Origin: Octopus vulgaris
Taxonomy: Eukaryota
Length of the DNA: 64,000 nt
Direction: 5' to 3'
NCBI GenBank assembly: GCA_951406725.2
Contig: OX597817.1
Coordinates: 138,570,001-138,634,000 of the forward strand
A model generated the notes under the pieces. The model saw only the letters and a list, made by a program, of their open reading frames with translations. It did not search any database and had not been told where the DNA came from. Of this stretch, positions 14,714 to 59,828 are shown piece after piece. How positions within the stretch are numbered: the first letter of the stretch is position 1; each line of letters opens with the position of its first letter. A program made the position numbers and the translations under genes.

Positions 14714-15873
14714 TTTTCACGGAGCCTTGTTACTGGCTAGGGAGTCAATAGCCTTGGTGAGCTCTGCTATAGATTGGCAGACTGTCAAGTTCGCACATGA
14801 CTGGCAAGATCTTGACACCCTCGATTGCAGCCTCAGCTACCGTGGTCTCCCGTGAGTAGAGATCCTGGTAGTACTCCACCCATCTATCCATTTGCTTGCT
14901 TTGGTTCTTGATGAGATCTCCAGAATTTGATTTCAGAGGGACTAACTTGGTTGCGGATGGACCGAGGGCCTTCTTCAAACCGGCATACATCTCACGGGTA
15001 TCGCCACTGTCAGCAGCTGACTGGATACTCTGACAGATTTCCTACCAATACCCATTTGCACAGCGTCTTTATCTATCTTGGCTCTACTGTCACCTACAAC
15101 CCATCCCTTGATGCCGAGCTCAATATGCGCATTGGCAAGGCAGCTGCTGTGATAGCCCAACTCTCCAAACGGGCATGGGACAACAATAAGCTGACCAATA
15201 CCACAAAAATGAAGATTTACCAGGCATGTGTACTTAGCACTATACGGTATGGAAGTGAGACTTGGACGCCATACGTCGCCTAAATATCTTTCACCTGCGC
15301 TGCCTCCGGAAAATCCTTCGCATCAAATGGCAGAATCATGTCCCCAACAAAGATGTCCTCAAGCAAGCAAGAATACCAAGTATGTTTGCACTCCTCACAC
15401 AAGGACGCATGAGATGGCTTCGACATGTTAGCCCTATGGAAGATGGTAGAATCCCCAAGGACATACTCAACGGAGAGCTTGTTAGGGGCACTAGGTCTGT
15501 GGGAAGACCGTTCTTATGATACAAGGATGTTTGCAAAAGGGTTATAAATACCTGCAACATCAATATTACCAACTGGGAAGCAGTTGCCAGGAGCCGTGGA
15601 GATTGGCGACGTACCGTAAAAGATGGAACACAAAGGAGTGACAGAGGGAGAGAGGAGAAATGGATAGACAAGAAAAGACGTCAACAAGAAAGTATGACAT
15701 TACAACCAGCCAGGCAAAGTCTTTGCTACATTTGCGGCACCTGCCAGAGGGAGTGTTTGTCGAGGATAGGACTACACAGCCACAGCAGGAGATGTATTAG
15801 GACATGAAATGTAAAAGCCGGACTAGATTATTTTATGCACAACTCCATTGTCTCCCGAGACAAAAAGGATGCC

Positions 15874-15876
<3 letters not shown>
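14709..15876 (+). mobile_element. RTE (BovB-like) LINE, 5'-truncated with inverted 5' segment
   Basis: Plus strand from about 15060: FIYLGS...LDAELNMRIGKA...YGSETWT...RWLRHV...CGTCQRECLSRIGLHSHSRRC. Minus strand 14709-15060: ICQSIQSAADSGDTREMYAGLKKALGP...RWVEYY. Confidence 0.9.
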
Positions 15877-15908
<32 letters not shown>

Positions 15909-16061
15909 TATAGATATAGATATTTAAATTTAATTAGAGTATGAGTTAACCTCATGAAGGGATGGTTTCATCCAAGGAAATACTGGTTAATACCTAACAT
16001 TTGGGGGGAACGAGTTTCCTTAAAATAATAGGTATATGGATTATTATAAGTATATTCATTT

Positions 16062-16240
16062 AGAAGAAGAAGAAAATGGAAATTGGGAAGTTAATAATTG
16101 TTCATTATTAGCAGCAAATTGGTCATCTTTACTTACAACCGTTTCTACTCATTGAGTATTAATAGAAACGGCTGTAAGTGAGGATGGCCAATTTGTTGTT
16201 AATAATGAACAATTATTAGCTTCTTTTTCTTCTTCTTTTA
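16062..16240. repeat. Fold-back palindrome with a hammerhead 3' half at its apex
   Basis: Arms of about 75 bp. GAAACGG(C/T)TGTAAG lies next to the apex on both strands. Confidence 0.7.
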
Positions 16241-16261
16241 AATGTATATATATATATATAT

Positions 16262-17150
16262 AAAGGAATTTTACCACTATGTGGAAACCCTTATGCTAGA
16301 AGAAGATCCGCTATGGTCTTAACCACTAAGAATTGTTCTCTAGAAAATTTAGCAAATACCAGAAACGTAAGCGAGCAAGACAAATGAAAAGTAACAAAAA
16401 TAAAGATTAATCATAAACACATGTTTCACTATCAACAAATTACGTAATTTTAATGCATAATTTATCTGTAGATCTTTAGTATGATCGTCTATACAAATAT
16501 AATTTGCAGAACTACACGCCACACATCAACACGAGGTCGAAAATGCATGCAGTTCTACCTATTACAGTTGTGGTTATTTTTCAAAAGTCTTCGTTTTGGC
16601 GCGCTAAATTACCGGAAATAATACTGCATAAAATAATTCACTGCAGTAGCTTTTGCCGGTTTGAGAACGTATTAATTTAAAATTAAAATTTAAATGAGGG
16701 TGAAAAATTGGATATTAATTTGATAACATCAATTTTAACACCAGTGGTCTAGCAGATAAAAAAACTGAGATTCAGTAAATAGTATTACATATATAAATAT
16801 ATATATATATATGTAAGGAAAATTACATATTTATGTAAGTAAAATTACGTAATTTTTTGATAGTGAAAAGTGTTTATGATTAATCTATATTTTTGTTACT
16901 TTTCATTTTTCTTGCTCGCTTACGTTTCTGGTGTTTGCTAAATTTTCTAGAGAACAATTCTTAGTGGTTAAGACTATAGCAGATCTTCTTCTAGCATAAG
17001 GGTTTCCACATAGTGGTAAAATAATTTCCACTTATATTTATATATGAAATACTATTTACTGAATCTCAGTTTTTTTATATGCTAGACCACTGGTGTTAAA
17101 ATTGATGTTATCAAATTAATATCCAATTTTTCACCCTCATTTTAATTTTA
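16262..17150. mobile_element. Inverted, permuted pair of a hammerhead-bearing element (monomer about 540 bp)
   Basis: 16262-16450 is inverted relative to 16840-17025, and 16680-16800 relative to 17033-17150. Minus-strand fold GATCATA-CTAAAGA...GAAAC-ATGT-GTT-TATGATT at 16409-16486. Confidence 0.8.
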
Positions 17151-17366
17151 TATATATATGTATATATATATATATTTCCTGAGCGCCATACTAATACAAT
17201 TGTTCGTTTGTTTTCCACCTGCCTTCGTCTTTTGTTTATTTTCATAAAGCTTCCCGTTATATATATATATATATATTGGTAAAAACGGTAAGATAACAAA
17301 AGAAGGAAATATGTAAATAGAAGAAATTCATCTATAAAATAATATGTTACATTTACTCAATAGTCA

Positions 17367-17429
17367 AGATAAAACTCTGAGTTTCAGATACCGAAGTGGA
17401 AATCCACAACACCATCTCTTCGGTTATCT
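17367..17429 (-). ncRNA. Type I hammerhead-like motif, core variant CCGAAGA
   Basis: AGATAA-CCGAAGA-GATGG...TATCT-GAAAC-TCAGA-GTT-TTATCT with a perfect 6-bp stem I. Confidence 0.65.
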
Positions 17430-18250
17430 GGCCATCTGAAAAAAGGCTATGAAAAAATACCGTTATACAAAGGGAAATTACTGTATTATAATTCTGCTCG
17501 CGAATCCACGTGCGTACTTATACGTCACTATGAAAACGTGCACATCTTCACTCGCATTTTTCGCCGAATTTATACGCATATATATACAACTCATACACAC
17601 ACACATGCGTACCGTAAAAGTTCATACATACGTCTATATACGCACAAGCACAAGAAAAACCATGGTTAAAGGTAACAGAAAAAAACATAAGGAAGTATAT
17701 ATATATATACAGCTGTAACTTAGTTTCATGCAGTGTAGTCACGATTATCCAAACAATCTTTCAGGCTCAACTATGAGTACATGCCGGTCTTCTTGAAAAG
17801 CCGCGAAGAACGACGAGAGAAAGAATAAAAAAAAATGTAGAATGAAACAAAAGATTAAAAAAATTAAGTTTCGTCCCTTTGTTCGAATCAGAATTAATGT
17901 GGTCGGTGTAAATAAATTCATCGGGGAGATAACTTTTATTCTTATAGCTATTTCTACTATAAGATGCATTGCACACAGAGCTGTGCTCATGCAATATCTC
18001 ATAGCTTACTCAGAGCTATTTCAATGAAGTCTGAAAGCAGAAACACCTGCAAGCTAATGAAAAGGATTATGTAACTGCTGTTCTTTTGTTATTCATTAAT
18101 CGATATTCTGCTCGATATTCCCCTGATCGTTTACTCTAAAGCGTGAATACATTGAGTTCTAGCAACTGGTTATTACTATCACTGTGACTGAGATTAATCT
18201 CTCTCTTTCTCACACTCACACACACACGTAAACACTCACATATATACATA

Positions 18251-18319
<69 letters not shown>

Positions 18320-18346
18320 TTATATGTATCTATATATACATACACA

Positions 18347-18416
<70 letters not shown>

Positions 18417-19060
18417 TATACATGTATATGTATATATATATAGAGAGAGAGAGACAGAGAGAGAGTGAGAGGTAGATAGATAGATAGATAGATAGAATCA
18501 TTCATTTGTTGCATCTTTCGCTCTGGGACGCAATCTTATCCTTTGTCTTCTTAGGCTCACCTACAATGCAGCCAAGCAAGGGTTGATAAACGCAAGGGCA
18601 TATCAATCAACCAGGAGAACACACAGCATTTCAGGGGTGCCAAATGCAGCTCCGAGATCTCCTGCTAAGTTAATCAAAGACAAAAAGTATTGACACACCT
18701 TCTGCAGCAGAAGGGAAAACGGAAGGTACTCTTCGCGAGTCAGAAACTGTATAGGAAAGTCTTGAGAAGGAAAACTGTTTTGTGGTTCCCAACAGGGGTT
18801 AACCAGCGGCATTGAAGTGTAAGCAAAGAAAGTCGTTAGCAGGTGTTAAGTAACGGATCACATCGTCCAAACTACGCACTATTGCATGAGGTTACATCAT
18901 CTCCCCTCACACAGATTTCTGCCCCCACCTTTTAGATGAACGCAGCAACAAACAAATATTACAATGCATGTACATGTGAACATGATTAACGCTTTACTAT
19001 ACTAAACCCTGATTTGTCGTTCACGACAAGACAATTCATCGTATACATAATACATAATAC

Positions 19061-19109
<49 letters not shown>

Positions 19110-19110
<1 letters not shown>

Positions 19111-19274
19111 GCGTAGGGGTGGCTGTGTGGTAAGTAGCTTGCTTACCAACCACTTGGTTCCGGGTTCAGTCCCACTGCGTGGCACCTTGGGCAAGTGTAT
19201 ACTGTTATAGCCTCGGGCCGACCAAAGCCTTGTGAGTGGATTTGGTAGACGGAAACTGAAAGAAGCCCGTCGTA

Positions 19275-19324
<50 letters not shown>

Positions 19325-19344
19325 TATGTATATATATATATGTA

Positions 19345-19412
<68 letters not shown>

Positions 19413-19625
19413 TGTGTGCGTTTGTGTGTCTGTGTTTGTCCCCTAGCATTGCTTGACAACCGATGCTGGTGTGTCTATGTCCCCGTTAGCGGTTCGGCAA
19501 AAGAGACCGATAGAATAAGTACTGGGCTTACAAAAGAATAAGTCCCGGGGTCGAGTTGCTCGATTAAAGGCGGTGCTCCAGCATGGCCGCAGTCAAATGA
19601 CTGAAACAAGTAAAAGAGTAAAAGA

Positions 19626-19627
<2 letters not shown>
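19110..19627 (+). mobile_element. SINE family B, full length
   Basis: TGGCTGTGTGGTAAG A-box, GGTTCAGTCCC B-box, expanded internal (TA)n and canonical tail. Confidence 0.9.
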
Positions 19628-19675
<48 letters not shown>

Positions 19676-19864
19676 ATATTAGGGAATAAATCCAAATTTA
19701 CAGGGAAAAATTAGATTTAGGATTAAATCCAATTTTATAGTATAAATATATTATATTATATTATATTGAGTTAGAGATAAAACTACTATTAGGCAAATCA
19801 AACAGTGAAAAACATAAGCCAATACGTAAAATTAATTTTAAAATATAAAAGTTAAAATTAAAAA

Positions 19865-19931
<67 letters not shown>

Positions 19932-19939
<8 letters not shown>

Positions 19940-20400
19940 TAAGGGTAGAAATTGATATCAATCAATTAAAAACCACTGGCCTAGCATATTTTAAAAAATC
20001 TGAAGATTAAAATTTTTTATATACAAAATTTAGAGGATTGACCACTAAAAGCGGACAGCCTGTATGCTAGATGTAGACGTCAAAATCGCCATTTTCTACG
20101 TAGAATGTGTTCTCAAGAAAAAATTCAGCAAAAAACCAAAGCGTAAAAATAAGCAAGGCAAATGAAAATATACGAAATAAAAAACGATTACTATGTACTA
20201 ATTAGTTTCACTTCGTAATAATTTACATATATGAATACGTAAACATCTGCAAGATCATCAACATAGTCTATCGTTTACGAAACAAAATTTCCAGAACTAG
20301 ATACAGCGTGCTCGACCGAAATCTAGCACTGTATTAAGTTCCACAAATTATATGTATGTGTATCTTTCAAATGCCTTCACTTTAGCGCGCTGAGATCGGA
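19932..20400 (-). mobile_element. Hammerhead-bearing element, diverged relative of the 16.3 kb family
   Basis: ACTATG-TTGATGA...GAAA-CTAATTAG-TA-CATAGT at 20190-20267. Flanking blocks resemble 16270-16400 and 16690-16790. Confidence 0.75.
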
Positions 20401-21159
20401 AATTACTCAGCTGGTGTGTTTACGTCTCCGTAACTTAGCGCTCTGCAAAAGAGACTGATAGAATAAGTACTAGACTTACAAAGAATAATGATTGTGTATA
20501 TGTGTGCCATATGATTATGTATATGTGTGTGTATGGACGTATATATTTTATATGCATATGTTGTGTATGTCAACTCTTGGAGCTGGCTTGCAGTTGTAGA
20601 ACCATCCAAAATTGCCCACTTAAAAGCATCCCGCTTCCTAAATTTGTCATGCATTGACCAAGTATACTTATCACTCGCCGATGGTACTGAACGGAGTTAC
20701 ACATGACAAACGGAGAATATCTTAAAGACCAGCTTTGGTCAGCACTTACATTAGATTACGTTCAGAGACTGAATTAATTGCGAATCTCTTTTACAACATG
20801 TCACGAAATGAAAGAACTAGGCAATAAAAAAATGCTTTCTTTGCCATAGTGTGGAGTATTAGGGATAAAGCATACGCCGTACTCAAATGCATCTATTTCA
20901 AACGTTCCATACATTGACAGAACCACACAGATCATTGAAGTCTCAGATATTATCATTTTGCTGTTAGAAGACAACATTTTTATCACACACACACATTAAT
21001 GTCTGTTTTTATATCAAGCTATATAAAAATATGATTTAACATTAAATTGAAAGATTATTCAATATTTTATAATAAAGGAAAATGTTGGTAGTGACTTCAG
21101 TGACTCGGCTTCCTCCTCTTCGTCTTTTTATGTTTTTGTTTTTGGTTTTTCACACACAC

Positions 21160-26292: not shown

Positions 26293-27278
26293 CAGAGAGT
26301 AGAAAGCCTCGAGATGATAGTAGCATTGGTCATCAAAGCAATCTATCTTGGACCAATAACCGGATTACTACCTCCCACTTTGAAGGGTATGCGTTTGCAA
26401 TCCAGGAACAGGAAATATCAACCAAATACCTGATGCACAAAAGGGAGAGAGATGCAGGCAAGGCAGTAAAGTGTAACAACCGATGCAGACTTTGTAGAGT
26501 TCACACTGAAGATATCACCCACATCATAAGCAGTTGTCCGGAAATGTCATCACAGTATTATTTACCGATGAGACATGATGTAGGTAGGACACTCTATAAT
26601 GAAATCTGTCGGAAGGAAAATACTGAGGACAAAGAAATAAGAACCCACAATATGGTAGAAGCCATAGCCACTCATAATAAAAAGAAATACTGGTGGAATG
26701 TCCCAGTGATGACCTCATTGAAATGTAAGCACAATTGACCTGATGTAAGGATTTGGGATAGAGAAGAGAAATTGTACAGGTTGTGGAAATTAGCTGCCCA
26801 GCGTGTATTGACATAAAGCTGAAGATCAGTGAAGAAGAGAATACCTACGATGAACTGAGAAATCTGCAGTTACTCTATCCAGATTACAAGTTCAAGTTTA
26901 TACCTGTAATTATTGGGGCCCTGTATATGTAACACACTGCCTAAATACCAATCATAAGAAATTACGCTTCTCAAAACCAGAAACGAGAAAGCTAATTCGA
27001 AGACTCCACATCTAATCCATCGCTGGAACTGTAAAAATCTGTAAAACTTTTCAGAAGTTTATCATTTAAATATAAATGAGCATGTCTAGATATGTAACTA
27101 TATGCATGAGAATACATACATAGAATATTCAAATCTGTACATGCATGCATACATAAATACATACATACAAAAATACCCTGTTGTTGATGTTGAAATTCCA
27201 ATGAAGGAGACTTGGATCTAGGTTAGAAACTGGCTTTTTCTCTATTGGCAAAAAAATCTTGAAATAAATTGAATAATG
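26293..27278 (+). mobile_element. R4/Dong-clade retrotransposon 3' fragment (CCHC knuckle and endonuclease) flanked by (TACA)n
   Basis: EGYAFAIQEQEISTKY...CRLCRVHTEDITHIISSC...RHD...HN*PDVRIWD...VEISCP...FIPVIIGAL. CATA repeats at both junctions. Confidence 0.88.
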
Positions 27279-27331
27279 ACATACATACATATATATATAT
27301 TTCTTATATAATGACGTACATATATATATTT

Positions 27332-27540
27332 CTTAAGAAATTAGACTTCTCAAAACCAGAAAGGAGAAAGAAAATTCGAAGACTACAGATCCAATCCATC
27401 ACTGGGACTATAAAAATTTATAAAACTTTCAAGAGGTTTATCATTTAAATATAAATGAGCATATCTAGATGTGCAATTATATGCATGAGAATACATACAT
27501 AAAAGAAAACATACAAATCTGCACATATGCACACATGCAC
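27332..27540 (+). mobile_element. Diverged second copy of the ORF end and 3' UTR of the 26.3 kb element
   Basis: AAGAAATTA..CTTCTCAAAACCAGAAA..ATCATTTAAATATAAATGAGCAT repeats 26955-27150. Confidence 0.85.
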
Positions 27541-27615: not shown

Positions 27616-27650
<35 letters not shown>

Positions 27651-27652
<2 letters not shown>

Positions 27653-28392
27653 AGAAAAAAGCAACAAAAATGGATTAGTTGTTCAATACAATTGTTTCAT
27701 ACGAAGAACAGCTTTATTAAAAGCTGCAAATATTGCAGCAAATACAAGTGTCCCGTATTCATCAGCCAAAACACATATGAGTTTCCAAACATCTTAGTGG
27801 GTGAGGCTACACTCATGAAGTATCGAAGAGAGTTCTATAAAAAGCAAATTTAGATTGTAAGCAGACTTCAAAAGTTCTCTAATGATGCACAGTTTTATAA
27901 AAGGTTTTAAAAAGCTTGTTAGCTTCAGAAAAGGTAAATCCATCCATAATAATGGAAATTACACCTACATTATTATGGATGGATTTACCTTTTCTGTGAA
28001 GCTAACAAGATTTTTTAAAACCTTTTATAAAACTGTGCATCATTAGAGAACTTTTGAAGTCTGCTTACAATCTAAATTTGCTTTTTATAGAACTCTCTTC
28101 GATACTTCATGAGTGTAGCCTCACCCCCTAGGGTGTTTGGAAAACTCATATGTGTTTTGGCTGACGAATACGGGAAACTTGTATTTGCTGCAATATTTGC
28201 AGCTTTTAATAAAGCTGTTCTTCGTATGAAACAATTGTACTGAACAACTAATCCATTTTTGTTGCTTTTTCTTGTTTATAATCACCCCGCATTATTTTAT
28301 GGTTAATACCATATAGATTTCCGGTGCATCTAAGTTAAGTACCGCATTCATGTGAATTCATTGGAACTCACTTGAATCTTAATTGCTTTTAC

Positions 28393-28397
<5 letters not shown>
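27651..28397. mobile_element. Fold-back hammerhead element with inverted arms of about 305 bp, between (TA)n tracts
   Basis: Arms 27651-27956 and 27970-28274. Folds: plus 28154-28245 (CTGACGA-ATACG...CGTAT-GAAAC-AATT-GTA), minus 27681-27772 (CTGATGA). Confidence 0.88.
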
Positions 28398-28433
<36 letters not shown>

Positions 28434-28786: not shown

Positions 28787-29824
<1,038 letters not shown>

Positions 29825-29851
29825 TACATACATACATACATGCATACATAC

Positions 29852-47049: not shown

Positions 47050-47330
47050 ATATAACTGAGAATGTGTGTGTGTCTGTCTGTCTATCTGTTTCCTAAAACT
47101 TGAGAACTATACAACCAATTTCATTCAAATTTTACACATGCCTTACTTAAGGTCCGGGGAGTATCATCGGCAAAAAAAAGCTTTTTCCCTAGGGCAACCC
47201 CACAGCAATATCATAACTTCTCCACTATTTCAGTATTACGTGTTAAAGTGAAACAAAAACATCTCTCTATTGTAATGCAGACATTCACTTTAATACTGAA
47301 ACTATTAAAGTGAAAGTATTATATAACAGG
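47050..47330 (+). mobile_element. Possible Helitron-like 5' portion
   Basis: TATATAA..(GT)n(CTGT)n..ACCAATTTCATTCAAATTTT layout, similar to 56227. Confidence 0.4.
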
Positions 47331-47449
47331 GATGAACCATTAACAGTGGTCATCCATTTTGCTAGAAGAAGATCCGCTATAGTCTTATATGCTACACCAC
47401 TATTTTTCAATTCATATTAATCAAATTAATATTCAATTTTCACCCTTAT

Positions 47450-47490
<41 letters not shown>

Positions 47491-53196: not shown

Positions 53197-53928
53197 TTTG
53201 GTATTGGCAACATGAATGACAATTGCCAGAGACTACTTGAAGTTTGCACATACCATAACCTGTGCATCACTAACATTCTTTGCCAACAAGACATCCCACA
53301 AGGCATCCAAAATCTCACCACTGGCATCAGCTGGATTTCATCATTACATGAAGATCCTTTCTGAATTCTGTTCAACTGACCCGTAGTTACCACAGCGCGG
53401 ATTGTGACACAGATCATTCACTAATAAGAAGCAGGATGAGGATTCTCACAAAGACGTATGAGATGGCTTCGACATGTTAGCCGTATGGAAGATGGCAGAA
53501 TCCCCAAGGACATACTCAACGGAGAGCTTGCTAAGGGCACTAGGTCTGTGGGAAGACCGTTCTTACGATACAAGAATGTTTGCAAAAGGGAAATGAATGC
53601 CTGCAACATCAATATTACCAACTGGGAAGCAGTTACCAGCAACCGTGGAGATAGGCGATGTACCGTAAAAGAGGGACCAAAAGGAGTGACATAGAGGGAG
53701 AGGAGAAATGGAAAGACAAGAAAAGACGTCAACAAGAAAGTATGACATTACAACCAGCCAGGCAAAGTCTTCGCTACATTTGCGGCACCTGCCAAATGGA
53801 GTGTTTGTCGAGGATAGGACTACACAGCCACAGCAGGAGATGTATTAGGACATGAAATGTAAAAGCCGGACTAGATTATTTTATGCGCAACTCCATTGTC
53901 TCCCGAGACAAAATGAATGCCAACAACA
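53197..53928 (+). mobile_element. Internally deleted RTE (BovB-like) LINE, same family as 14.7 kb
   Basis: Endonuclease FGIGNMNDNCQRLLEVC...HWHQLDFII...SADCDTDHSLI is joined directly to a 3' end nearly identical to 15395-15876. Confidence 0.9.
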
Positions 53929-54203
53929 ATATATATGGATTTCGTAGACAGGAACTGAAACAAATCAATCGTATATATATGTATATATGTAAGTGTATGT
54001 GTGTGTCTTTATGTCTGTGTTTCGCCCTCATCACTGCTTCACAACTGCTGTTCATTTATTTACATCCACAAAACTTACTGGTTTCACAAGAACAAACTAA
54101 TAGAATAAGTGCTAGGCTTATCAACATAAAAAAGCACTAGGCTGTGTCTCATATTTTTGTTTGCCCACTCAGTTGTATCTATCAATTCATCTTTGTGTAT
54201 GTG

Positions 54204-55413: not shown

Positions 55414-55420
<7 letters not shown>

Positions 55421-55952
55421 ATATTTCGGAATGGTCATATTTTTAGCCAATAAAAACACGCACTATATATTTGGTGTTATTTTGCTTCAGTGATATTTAT
55501 TTTTTACTCTTAATCTTATTTCGGCCAGAGTTCTTTCGTCACACTCCTGTGACCGCATCAGTGGTCCTTTGTTTTTTTCTTTCGTATTTGTGTCTCTCCT
55601 TACTAACCGTCAGCCATTTTGTATTTCTATTGTATGTCTTCAAATGCTTATATCTCTATGTGCGTCTATGTTTATTTAGTGTGTGTGTGTGGGGGGGATG
55701 CCTGTAATATATATATCTTCTGTTTATATACATTCATGCAATTTGTATTTTGTTTTTGTTGTTGTTGCTTTTGTTCTACGAAAAAAAAACAAAGGACCAC
55801 TTTTCACAGGAGTGTGACGAAAGAACTTGGCCGAAATAAGATTAAGATTAATGTAAAAAATAAATATCTGAAGCAAAATAACACCAAATATATAGTGCGT
55901 GTGTTTTTATTGGCTAAACTGGCAATATGACCATTCCGAAATATAACAATAT
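55414..55952. mobile_element. Inverted repeat of about 170 bp with a degenerate hammerhead in the left arm
   Basis: Arms 55414-55587 and 55777-55952. Minus strand GGACCA-CTGATGCG-GTCAC..GTGAC-GAAA-GAAC-TC-TGGCC at 55523-55567. Confidence 0.65.
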
Positions 55953-55985
55953 TGTTTCAATCACGACTTCACATAAAAATCTTGC

Positions 55986-56071
<86 letters not shown>

Positions 56072-59348: not shown

Positions 59349-59450
<102 letters not shown>

Positions 59451-59828
59451 ATATCGTTTAGAGAATTATTATTGCTGTCGAACAGATTTTCGAAATCAGT
59501 AAATGTATTTACGTGAAAATCTTTATATAAATATCCTGCATGGAGAGTCGTTCATCGAAGGGCGGTGCCTACCATACGTTGACGAGAGGCAAACACCTCG
59601 AAACCTGGGTCCGTATGTGGCTTCCGCTTCTTCGGTGGATGATCTCCCTTTGCAGGATAGAGGACGCCGTGATGGTGTCAAGCCTTCTGGTGACGTTGAT
59701 GTTCGCCTGGGGTAAATGCAACAGTAACACCCCCACTCTGCCCTGTCCCTAGCCACATTCAAATGGCTAATGTCCCTTTTGTTATGGAGCAGTTACTGTC
59801 TATATCTCGTTTAGAGAATTATTATTGC

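What the first reader, a model, noticed from the sequence alone, without database searches (positions are those of the whole stretch)
16262..17150. Circularly permuted monomer of about 540 nt, suggesting a circular or concatemeric RNA template
Seen: the minus strand reads block B - middle - hammerhead - block A (16800 to 16262). The adjacent plus copy reads partial hammerhead - A - B, and the relative at 19932-20400 reads middle - hammerhead - A - B. Block B therefore both precedes and follows the unit. The minus copy starts and ends at the element's internal TATATTTATATAT junction, merging with genomic TA runs. Inference: retrozyme-like reverse transcription of a circle or tandem, primed by TA microhomology.
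Basis: partly seen in the sequence, partly recalled or inferred. Interest (0 to 1): 0.8.

Follow-up and report, generated by a model that had tools for sequence, protein, structure and literature searches.

The report
Penelope-pasted 540-base hammerhead retrozyme
This is an old insertion of a multi-copy, non-coding 540-base repeat carrying a predicted self-cutting RNA (broken in this copy), laid down as two back-to-back arms that end at two fixed points, likely because a Penelope-type jumping-gene enzyme copied a head-to-tail RNA into both ends of a DNA cut; the kind is known, and whether the RNA was a circle is untested.

Summary
The permutation is real: the minus arm (16801→16265) reads B-M-hammerhead-A, while the plus arm and two relatives read …A-B. 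It is not random. Both inverted arms (16265, 47329) end at site 1, after A. All three other copies (17149, 19933, 47451) end at site 2, after the ~115-nt block B. An unrelated hammerhead family at 27650-28398 has the same two-armed shape with a ~120-nt tail on one arm. This matches the published Penelope-like-element (PLE) footprint: inverted 5'-truncated copy, one-sided tail between two RT start sites, TA targets. The type I hammerhead is supported by compensatory pairs; this copy has G5A, but laid contigs show CUGAAGA in 97-100% of depth. B→M recurs in other copies, so the unit is head-to-tail. Both arms cross the predicted cut site, so the template was an uncleaved multimer or a circle; nothing here separates them. 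TA microhomology fits site 1 only. Verdict: new family of a known kind (non-LTR retrozyme / mini-PLE), longer than published units. The scan has noted the same footprint for other families in this genome.

The parts
16265..16801 (-). Left (inverted) arm: one full period, B-M-HH-A, ending at site 1 without tail
16688..16801 (-). Block B (~115 nt between site 1 and site 2; the 'tail'), here followed by M
   Evidence: B→M bridged in other copies
16487..16687 (-). Block M; its 5' part is predicted to pair with block A in a long rod
16409..16486 (-). Type I hammerhead: stem I 7 bp, core CTAAAGA (G5A at 16477; family CUGAAGA), U·U at base of a long stem II, GAAA at 16427, short stem III, predicted cut 16416|16415
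16265..16408 (-). Block A, ending in a hairpin just before site 1
16802..16837 (.). Centre junction: about (TA)4, then a ~20-nt slipped duplication of stem II sequence
   Evidence: sequence; slippage is inferred
16838..17149 (+). Right (direct) arm: 3' half of hammerhead (16838-16881), A, TA-rich junction, B; ends at site 2 in a TA run
16243..16264 (.). Left flank TA run
17150..17176 (.). Right flank TA run; shares ATG(TA)7 with the left flank (possible target duplication, low complexity)
19933..20403 (-). Diverged relative M-HH-A-B ending at site 2 in a TA run; 5' end abuts another repeat; hammerhead at 20190-20267 with TTGATGA core and GUA triplet
47329..47451 (.). Small two-armed copy of the same family: 3' part of A on minus (47387→47329, ends at site 1) joined through TTA to 3' part of B on plus (47385→47451, ends at site 2, then (TG)n)

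Best explanation
This is one two-armed insertion of a multi-copy, non-coding ~540-nt hammerhead repeat (non-LTR retrozyme / mini-PLE), likely written by a borrowed Penelope-type RT/endonuclease that would cut a TA run and extend both DNA ends on a head-to-tail RNA from two fixed internal start sites. Steps. (1) Shown: the unit order closes on itself (B→M→HH→A→B), and the unit has no Pfam match. (2) Shown: 3' ends fall at site 1 (after A) or site 2 (after B), and 5' ends vary. (3) Inferred: a PLE protein nicks both strands at (TA)n; one end primes at site 2 and copied ~310 nt (right arm), the other primes at site 1 and copied one full period (left arm). (4) Inferred: the two cDNA ends were joined by microhomology and slippage at the centre. 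(5) Inferred: both arms cross the hammerhead cut site, so the template was an uncleaved multimer or a re-ligated circle, not a cleaved linear monomer. (6) Inferred: G5A arose after insertion and this copy no longer cuts.
For: Ends: 2 of 2 inverted arms stop at site 1 and 3 of 3 other copies stop at site 2. An unrelated hammerhead family at 27650-28398 has arms 301/309 identical and a ~120-nt extension on the right arm only. Laid contigs (4 runs): depth over A and the 3' part of B is about ten times that over M and HH, with steps of 8.9, 8.8, 5.6 and 11.6-fold at 16683|16684. 3 of 32 listed pieces (2 distinct sequences, 15-24 other letters) bridge B→M with 31 or more letters on both sides. 6 of 15 listed joints are opposite-strand, at varied internal points. 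Hammerhead: descriptor with one core mismatch finds 5 motifs in the window against 1 in 12 shuffled windows. Stem I has 3 double changes in 6 pairs between this copy and the relative, stem II one, stem III one. 16477 reads C (G5 restored) in 97-100% of depth in all 4 runs. The unit folds at z -5.7 linear and -6.8 circular, 0 of 60 shuffles. The arms share the window's allele at 7 of 12 variable positions checked, including 16420 C, held by only 13-22% of family depth. Literature: inverted 5'-truncated copy, partial tandems, one-sided tail and TA targets in PLEs (PMC8557442); two internal RT start sites delimit the tail, both strands are cut and extended, and uncleaved RNA is the template (PMC11167929).
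Against: No autonomous partner was found: no genome is held and the motifs searched in the PLE supplement gave only short scattered hits. B (~115 nt) is three times the published 30-40-bp tail. The arms differ at 12 of 303 aligned positions plus a 2-nt gap, and by about 5 nt of indels in the site-1 hairpin; the centre holds a TA run, so two separate insertions remain possible. At 4 of the 12 variable positions the plus arm has the other allele or a gap (16357, 16403, 16691, 16421), and the shared 16420 C lies beside that gap. The two arms overlap by ~190 nt of template, which simple twin priming on one short linear RNA does not give. Depth from contigs is not copy number, and other families sharing only A and B could inflate it. 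The direction of the opposite-strand joints is not given. Rod covariation rests on two sequences (29 of 500 shuffles reach it). No complete dimer with two hammerheads lies in the window.
Confidence: 0.68

Rival explanations
1. Same family and enzyme, but two independent insertions into one TA run: a full-period copy and a 5'-truncated copy that happen to lie head to head.
For: About (TA)4 lies between the arms; they differ by ~4% and by indels at the site-1 hairpin; the family strongly prefers TA runs.
Against: Two other loci in the window (47329-47451, 27650-28398) have the same geometry with no TA run at the centre; the arms share a minority allele; only the right arm has the tail.
Confidence: 0.13
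2. The blocks are terminal (pseudo-LTR) pieces of an autonomous PLE, and B→M is an occasional internal deletion rather than a self-propagating short unit.
For: A and B are about ten times deeper than M, as expected for heavily truncated PLE ends; PLE pLTRs carry type I hammerheads (PMC8557442).
Against: B→M recurs in diverged copies and depth does not fall towards M's 5' start; M pairs with A in a rod kept in a 75%-identical relative; no Pfam hit in six frames.
Confidence: 0.09
3. One reading: a circle primed wherever TA microhomology occurs, giving permuted monomers.
For: The left arm is one turn long and starts in the TA-rich junction; circular folding is favourable; animal retrozymes do form circles (PMC7229834).
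Against: Ends are fixed; site 2 has only 1-3 nt of match to the flank and one copy abuts (TG)n; depth is polar, not flat; PLE RT starts at set RNA sites without homology to the target (PMC11167929).
Confidence: 0.06
4. A DNA-level local rearrangement or foldback of an ordinary repeat.
For: A and B contain inverted repeats (CTAGCATA/TATGCTAG) that could promote foldback; microsatellite-rich region.
Against: The same end geometry in three loci and two unrelated families; B→M in other copies; a covarying hammerhead.
Confidence: 0.04

Closest known systems
Metazoan non-LTR retrozymes (Cervera and de la Peña 2020, PMC7229834; passages and section 14 read)
   Same: Non-coding, low GC (31%), head-to-tail unit with one type I hammerhead; highly self-paired fold; U·U at the base of stem II and a 2-bp stem III with tetraloop, as described for axolotl HHR_Amex2.
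   Different: Unit ~540 nt against 150-450 bp repeats and ~170-400-nt circles; long stem II; no full dimer in this window; circle and cleavage not shown; this copy's core is mutated.
Penelope-like elements, insertion structure (Craig et al. 2021, PMC8557442; passages and supplement search hits read; Hydra-1_Obim and Naiad_Obim are listed there as (TA)n-targeting)
   Same: Inverted 5'-truncated copy at the 5' end, partial tandem, tail on one end only, (TA)n targets, hammerhead in the terminal repeat.
   Different: No RT/GIY-YIG ORF; tail ~115 nt rather than 30-40 bp; no sequence link to a named family was shown.
Poseidon PLE of Anolis, PAc (Frangieh et al. 2024, PMC11167929; parts 1-2 of 4 read)
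   Same: Two internal start sites downstream of the hammerhead cut; AT-rich target; template not cut at the hammerhead.
   Different: Here inferred from five genomic ends, not measured; sites lie ~150 and ~265 nt past the cut and each follows a predicted hairpin.
Retrozymes as non-autonomous PLE derivatives (Li, Clavereau, Pollet 2026, bioRxiv 10.64898/2026.07.22.740005; parts 1 and 3 of 5 and passages read, supplements not seen)
   Same: Same proposed relationship.
   Different: Their evidence is co-occurrence and pLTR phylogeny, mostly in vertebrates; the words 'tail', 'octopus' and 'mollus' do not occur in its main text. The evidence here is insertion anatomy.

Membership tests
Non-LTR retrozyme | Type I hammerhead in the unit | tested here: met
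   Stems I-III and covariation; family core CUGAAGA; this copy G5A
Non-LTR retrozyme | Head-to-tail repeat organisation | tested here: met
   A→B in two copies, B→M here and in 2 distinct other sequences
Non-LTR retrozyme | [quoted passage not shown] | tested here: inconclusive
   None in this window; contigs were too short to span the unit; no genome held
Non-LTR retrozyme | Non-coding, GC under 50% | tested here: met
   GC 0.31; 0 Pfam families in 6 of 6 frames
Non-LTR retrozyme | Unit of about 150-450 bp | tested here: not met
   ~540 nt; this is a reported range, not a mechanistic limit
Non-LTR retrozyme | Self-cleavage and circular RNA in cells | not testable with these tools
   Only contig runs were offered
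PLE-mobilised element | Fixed 3' ends with a one-sided tail and variable 5' ends | tested here: met
   5 of 5 ends at two sites; depth step at B|M
PLE-mobilised element | Inverted 5'-truncated copy adjoining the 5' end | tested here: met
   16.8 kb and 47.4 kb loci; 6 of 15 listed joints opposite-strand
PLE-mobilised element | Microsatellite (TA)n target | tested here: met
   3 of 5 ends in long TA runs, 1 in a short TA stretch, 1 beside (TG)n
PLE-mobilised element | Sequence shared with the pLTR of an autonomous PLE | tested here: inconclusive
   4 short motifs against the PMC8557442 supplement gave only isolated hits in unrelated-looking context; host genome not searchable
Autonomous PLE | RT plus GIY-YIG ORF | tested here: not met

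The most novel reading that the evidence does not exclude
The left arm records exactly one lap of a Penelope-type RT round a 540-nt hammerhead RNA circle, stopping at its own start, while the other DNA end was primed 115 nt further on. The family would then be the longest animal retrozyme circle I could find described, and would show that PLE enzymes paste RNA circles into both ends of a cut from two hairpin-marked start sites.
Probability: 0.3. Interest if true: 0.65.

Novelty: new member of a known kind. Interest (0 to 1): 0.38.

Why it matters
How animal retrozymes get back into the genome is proposed, not shown. The ends of these copies match the PLE tail and inverted-copy signature and name two exact start sites on a short RNA, which makes the PLE-mobilisation model testable in vitro with a defined template. 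This locus itself is old and has a mutated ribozyme, and the scan has already noted younger families with the same footprint in this genome, so it adds a family rather than a principle.

Tried and rejected
Rfam: 0 hits at gathering score in the window; 48 matches at E up to 10 in 16000-20600, none a hammerhead. Free folding of the two hammerheads alone was not better than shuffles (z -0.25 and -0.53); support comes from the descriptor and covariation. No genome held. No RNA holder listed among 24 runs; one guessed-RNA contig run was laid (X15) and is no evidence on expression. The TA-rich ends were masked, so joints at site 1 could not be counted, and read support for the A→B junction was not obtained. 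A 29-nt motif found 0 matches in metagenome and viral contigs. Earlier scan notes by sequence: nothing for either arm. The spacing was set too short, so its null says nothing. Hairpins before sites 1 and 2: 8 stretches folded, 3 with z below -2.8 (47 kb site 1, and both 16-17 kb copies of B), the other 5 not beyond chance; a lead only. MAFFT misaligned the four hammerheads; pairs were read by coordinate instead. Coding origin of M rejected. Cephalopod retrozymes in print: none seen in the listings (21 of 22 shown; 15 of 48 shown); listings only.

Full report
Setting. The window is AT-rich animal DNA full of microsatellites and short repeats, with no long plain-sequence ORF. It looks octopus-like; that label is recalled and echoed by earlier scan notes, and no call names the organism. 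No genome is held.

Observation. The minus arm 16801→16265 reads B-M-hammerhead-A. The plus arm 16838→17149 reads 3' half of the hammerhead, A, B. A relative 20403→19933 reads M-hammerhead-A-B. Matches have E values of 3e-66, 1e-42 and 3e-26; the arms are 176/185 and 115/118 identical, the relative 259/346. The minus arm begins about 3 nt after the point where A ends in the plus arm, so it is one period (~540 nt) long.

Ends are fixed. Both inverted arms stop just after a CC that closes a predicted hairpin at the end of A (site 1). The plus arm, the relative and the 47 kb right arm all stop within about 10 nt after CCCTYATT at the end of B (site 2). That is 5 of 5 ends at two sites. 5' ends vary. 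Contigs of four public runs laid on 16200-16830 agree: summed depth is about 68,000-340,000 over A and the 3' part of B against 5,000-28,000 over most of M and the hammerhead in run X1, with steps of 8.9, 8.8, 5.6 and 11.6-fold at the B|M boundary in the four runs. Single pieces in X1 have depths of 35-58, so the family runs to hundreds of copies for M and thousands for A and B; the tool warns this is not a copy number. Of 32 listed pieces (6,082 not shown), 3 bridge B→M with 31 or more letters each side; they are 2 distinct sequences with 15-24 other letters, so other loci. 6 of 15 listed joints (2 not shown) are opposite-strand, each with one side in A and the other at a varied point; their direction is not given. 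The TA-rich ends were masked.

The hammerhead is real. A type I descriptor allowing one core mismatch finds 5 motifs in the window and 1 in 12 shuffled windows. The motif at 16409-16486 has a 7-bp stem I, core CTAAAGA, U·U then three pairs opening stem II, GAAA, a short stem III and a GUU triplet, giving a predicted cut at 16416|16415. The relative has TTGATGA and GUA. Between them stem I shows 3 double changes in 6 pairs, stem II and stem III one each. In laid contigs position 16477 reads C in 6106/6106, 12775/12862, 868/898 and 98/98 of depth, so the family core is CUGAAGA and G5A is particular to this copy; stem III reads AAC-AATT-GTT, a palindrome, in most of the depth; the stem I partners 16481 and 16414 both vary in the compensating direction, unphased. 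That G5A kills and C3U weakens cleavage is recalled. Rfam misses the motif and it does not fold better than shuffles on its own.

The unit is a structured non-coding RNA. It folds at z -5.7 (linear) and -6.8 (circular), the opposite strand at -3.1, none reached by 60 shuffles. A rod between M and A is kept in the relative: 33 of 33 pairs in both, 4 with double changes, 33-44% paired when slid, but 29 of 500 shuffles reach it and the structure was derived from these two sequences. A and B pair across their junction through CTAGCATA/TATGCTAG. Six frames give no Pfam family.

An independent check in the window. An unrelated family at 27650-28398 has two intact hammerheads (C3 at 27765 minus and 28161 plus), arms 301/309 identical set head to head, TA runs on both sides, and a ~120-nt extension on the right arm only.

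Mechanism. PLE insertions are described as partial tandems, often with an inverted 5'-truncated copy at the 5' end, a 30-40-bp tail on one end only, and (TA)n targets in several clades (PMC8557442, passages). The Anolis PLE protein cuts and extends both strands, starts at two internal RNA sites that delimit the tail, needs no homology to the target, and uses RNA not cut by the hammerhead (PMC11167929, parts 1-2 of 4). The locus fits: B is the tail; one DNA end was likely primed at site 2 and the other at site 1; the cDNAs were likely joined at the centre, where (TA)4 and a ~20-nt slipped duplication lie. Both arms cross the cut site, so the template was uncleaved multimer or circle. The exact one-period length of the left arm is what a single lap would give, but a TA-rich join gives it too, and it is one post-hoc case.

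Against this reading. No partner PLE was found. The tail is three times the published length. The arms differ by ~4% and by indels at the site-1 hairpin; they share the window's allele at 7 of 12 variable positions (one more is ambiguous between runs), differ at 3 where the minus arm has the rare allele, and one is a gap. A TA run at the centre leaves two separate insertions possible. The ~190-nt overlap between arms needs two RNAs, a long multimer or strand displacement.

Comparison and verdict. It works like a non-LTR retrozyme (PMC7229834, passages and section 14) mobilised by PLEs, as proposed in bioRxiv 10.64898/2026.07.22.740005 (parts 1 and 3 of 5 and passages; supplements not seen, and they may list longer units or molluscan families). 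It meets the hammerhead, head-to-tail and non-coding tests, exceeds the reported size range, and is untested for cleavage and circles. I saw no cephalopod retrozyme in the listings. Earlier scan notes describe 360- and 485-495-nt families with the same two-armed footprint in this genome; these are unchecked notes, not support, and neither arm of this family matched them by sequence. New member of a known kind; interest 0.38.

Noticed in passing
window 27650-28398: Unrelated, younger two-armed insertion in TA runs: arms 301/309 identical, two intact type I hammerheads (CUGAUGA at 27765 minus, CUGACGA at 28161 plus, long stem II, GUA triplet, AATT loop), ~120-nt tail on the right arm only. A better candidate for a cleavage assay than the given locus.
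   Followed up: partly
window 28911-29830: Inverted pair 28999-29310 / 29531-29841 (93%) beside TA runs, plus a second inverted pair of ~70 nt (28911-28985 / 29311-29376). No hammerhead found by the descriptor.
   Followed up: no
window 55417-55993: Inverted pair of ~170 nt between TA runs with extra sequence on the right arm (55953-55993); possibly another two-armed insertion or a MITE.
   Followed up: no
window 59573-59617 (+): Compact single type I hammerhead-like motif (TTGACGA core, GTC triplet, 6-bp stem I) in a GC-richer insert between (TATC)n and (GATA)n runs, flanked by a 26-nt direct repeat (59450-59475 / 59803-59828).
   Followed up: no
window 14915-15889 and 53444-53936: Fragment resembling the 3' end of a LINE reverse transcriptase (recalled resemblance of the translation); 15395-15889 recurs at 53444-53936 at 93%.
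   Followed up: no
window 16265-16300, 16700-16745, 47329-47355: Both fixed end sites follow a predicted hairpin closed by GG/CC; significant in 3 of 8 stretches folded. Possible recognition signal.
   Followed up: partly
window 26952-27154 and 27331-27536: Direct duplication (84%) of a ~200-nt repeat end following an RT-like coding fragment near 26450-27060.
   Followed up: no
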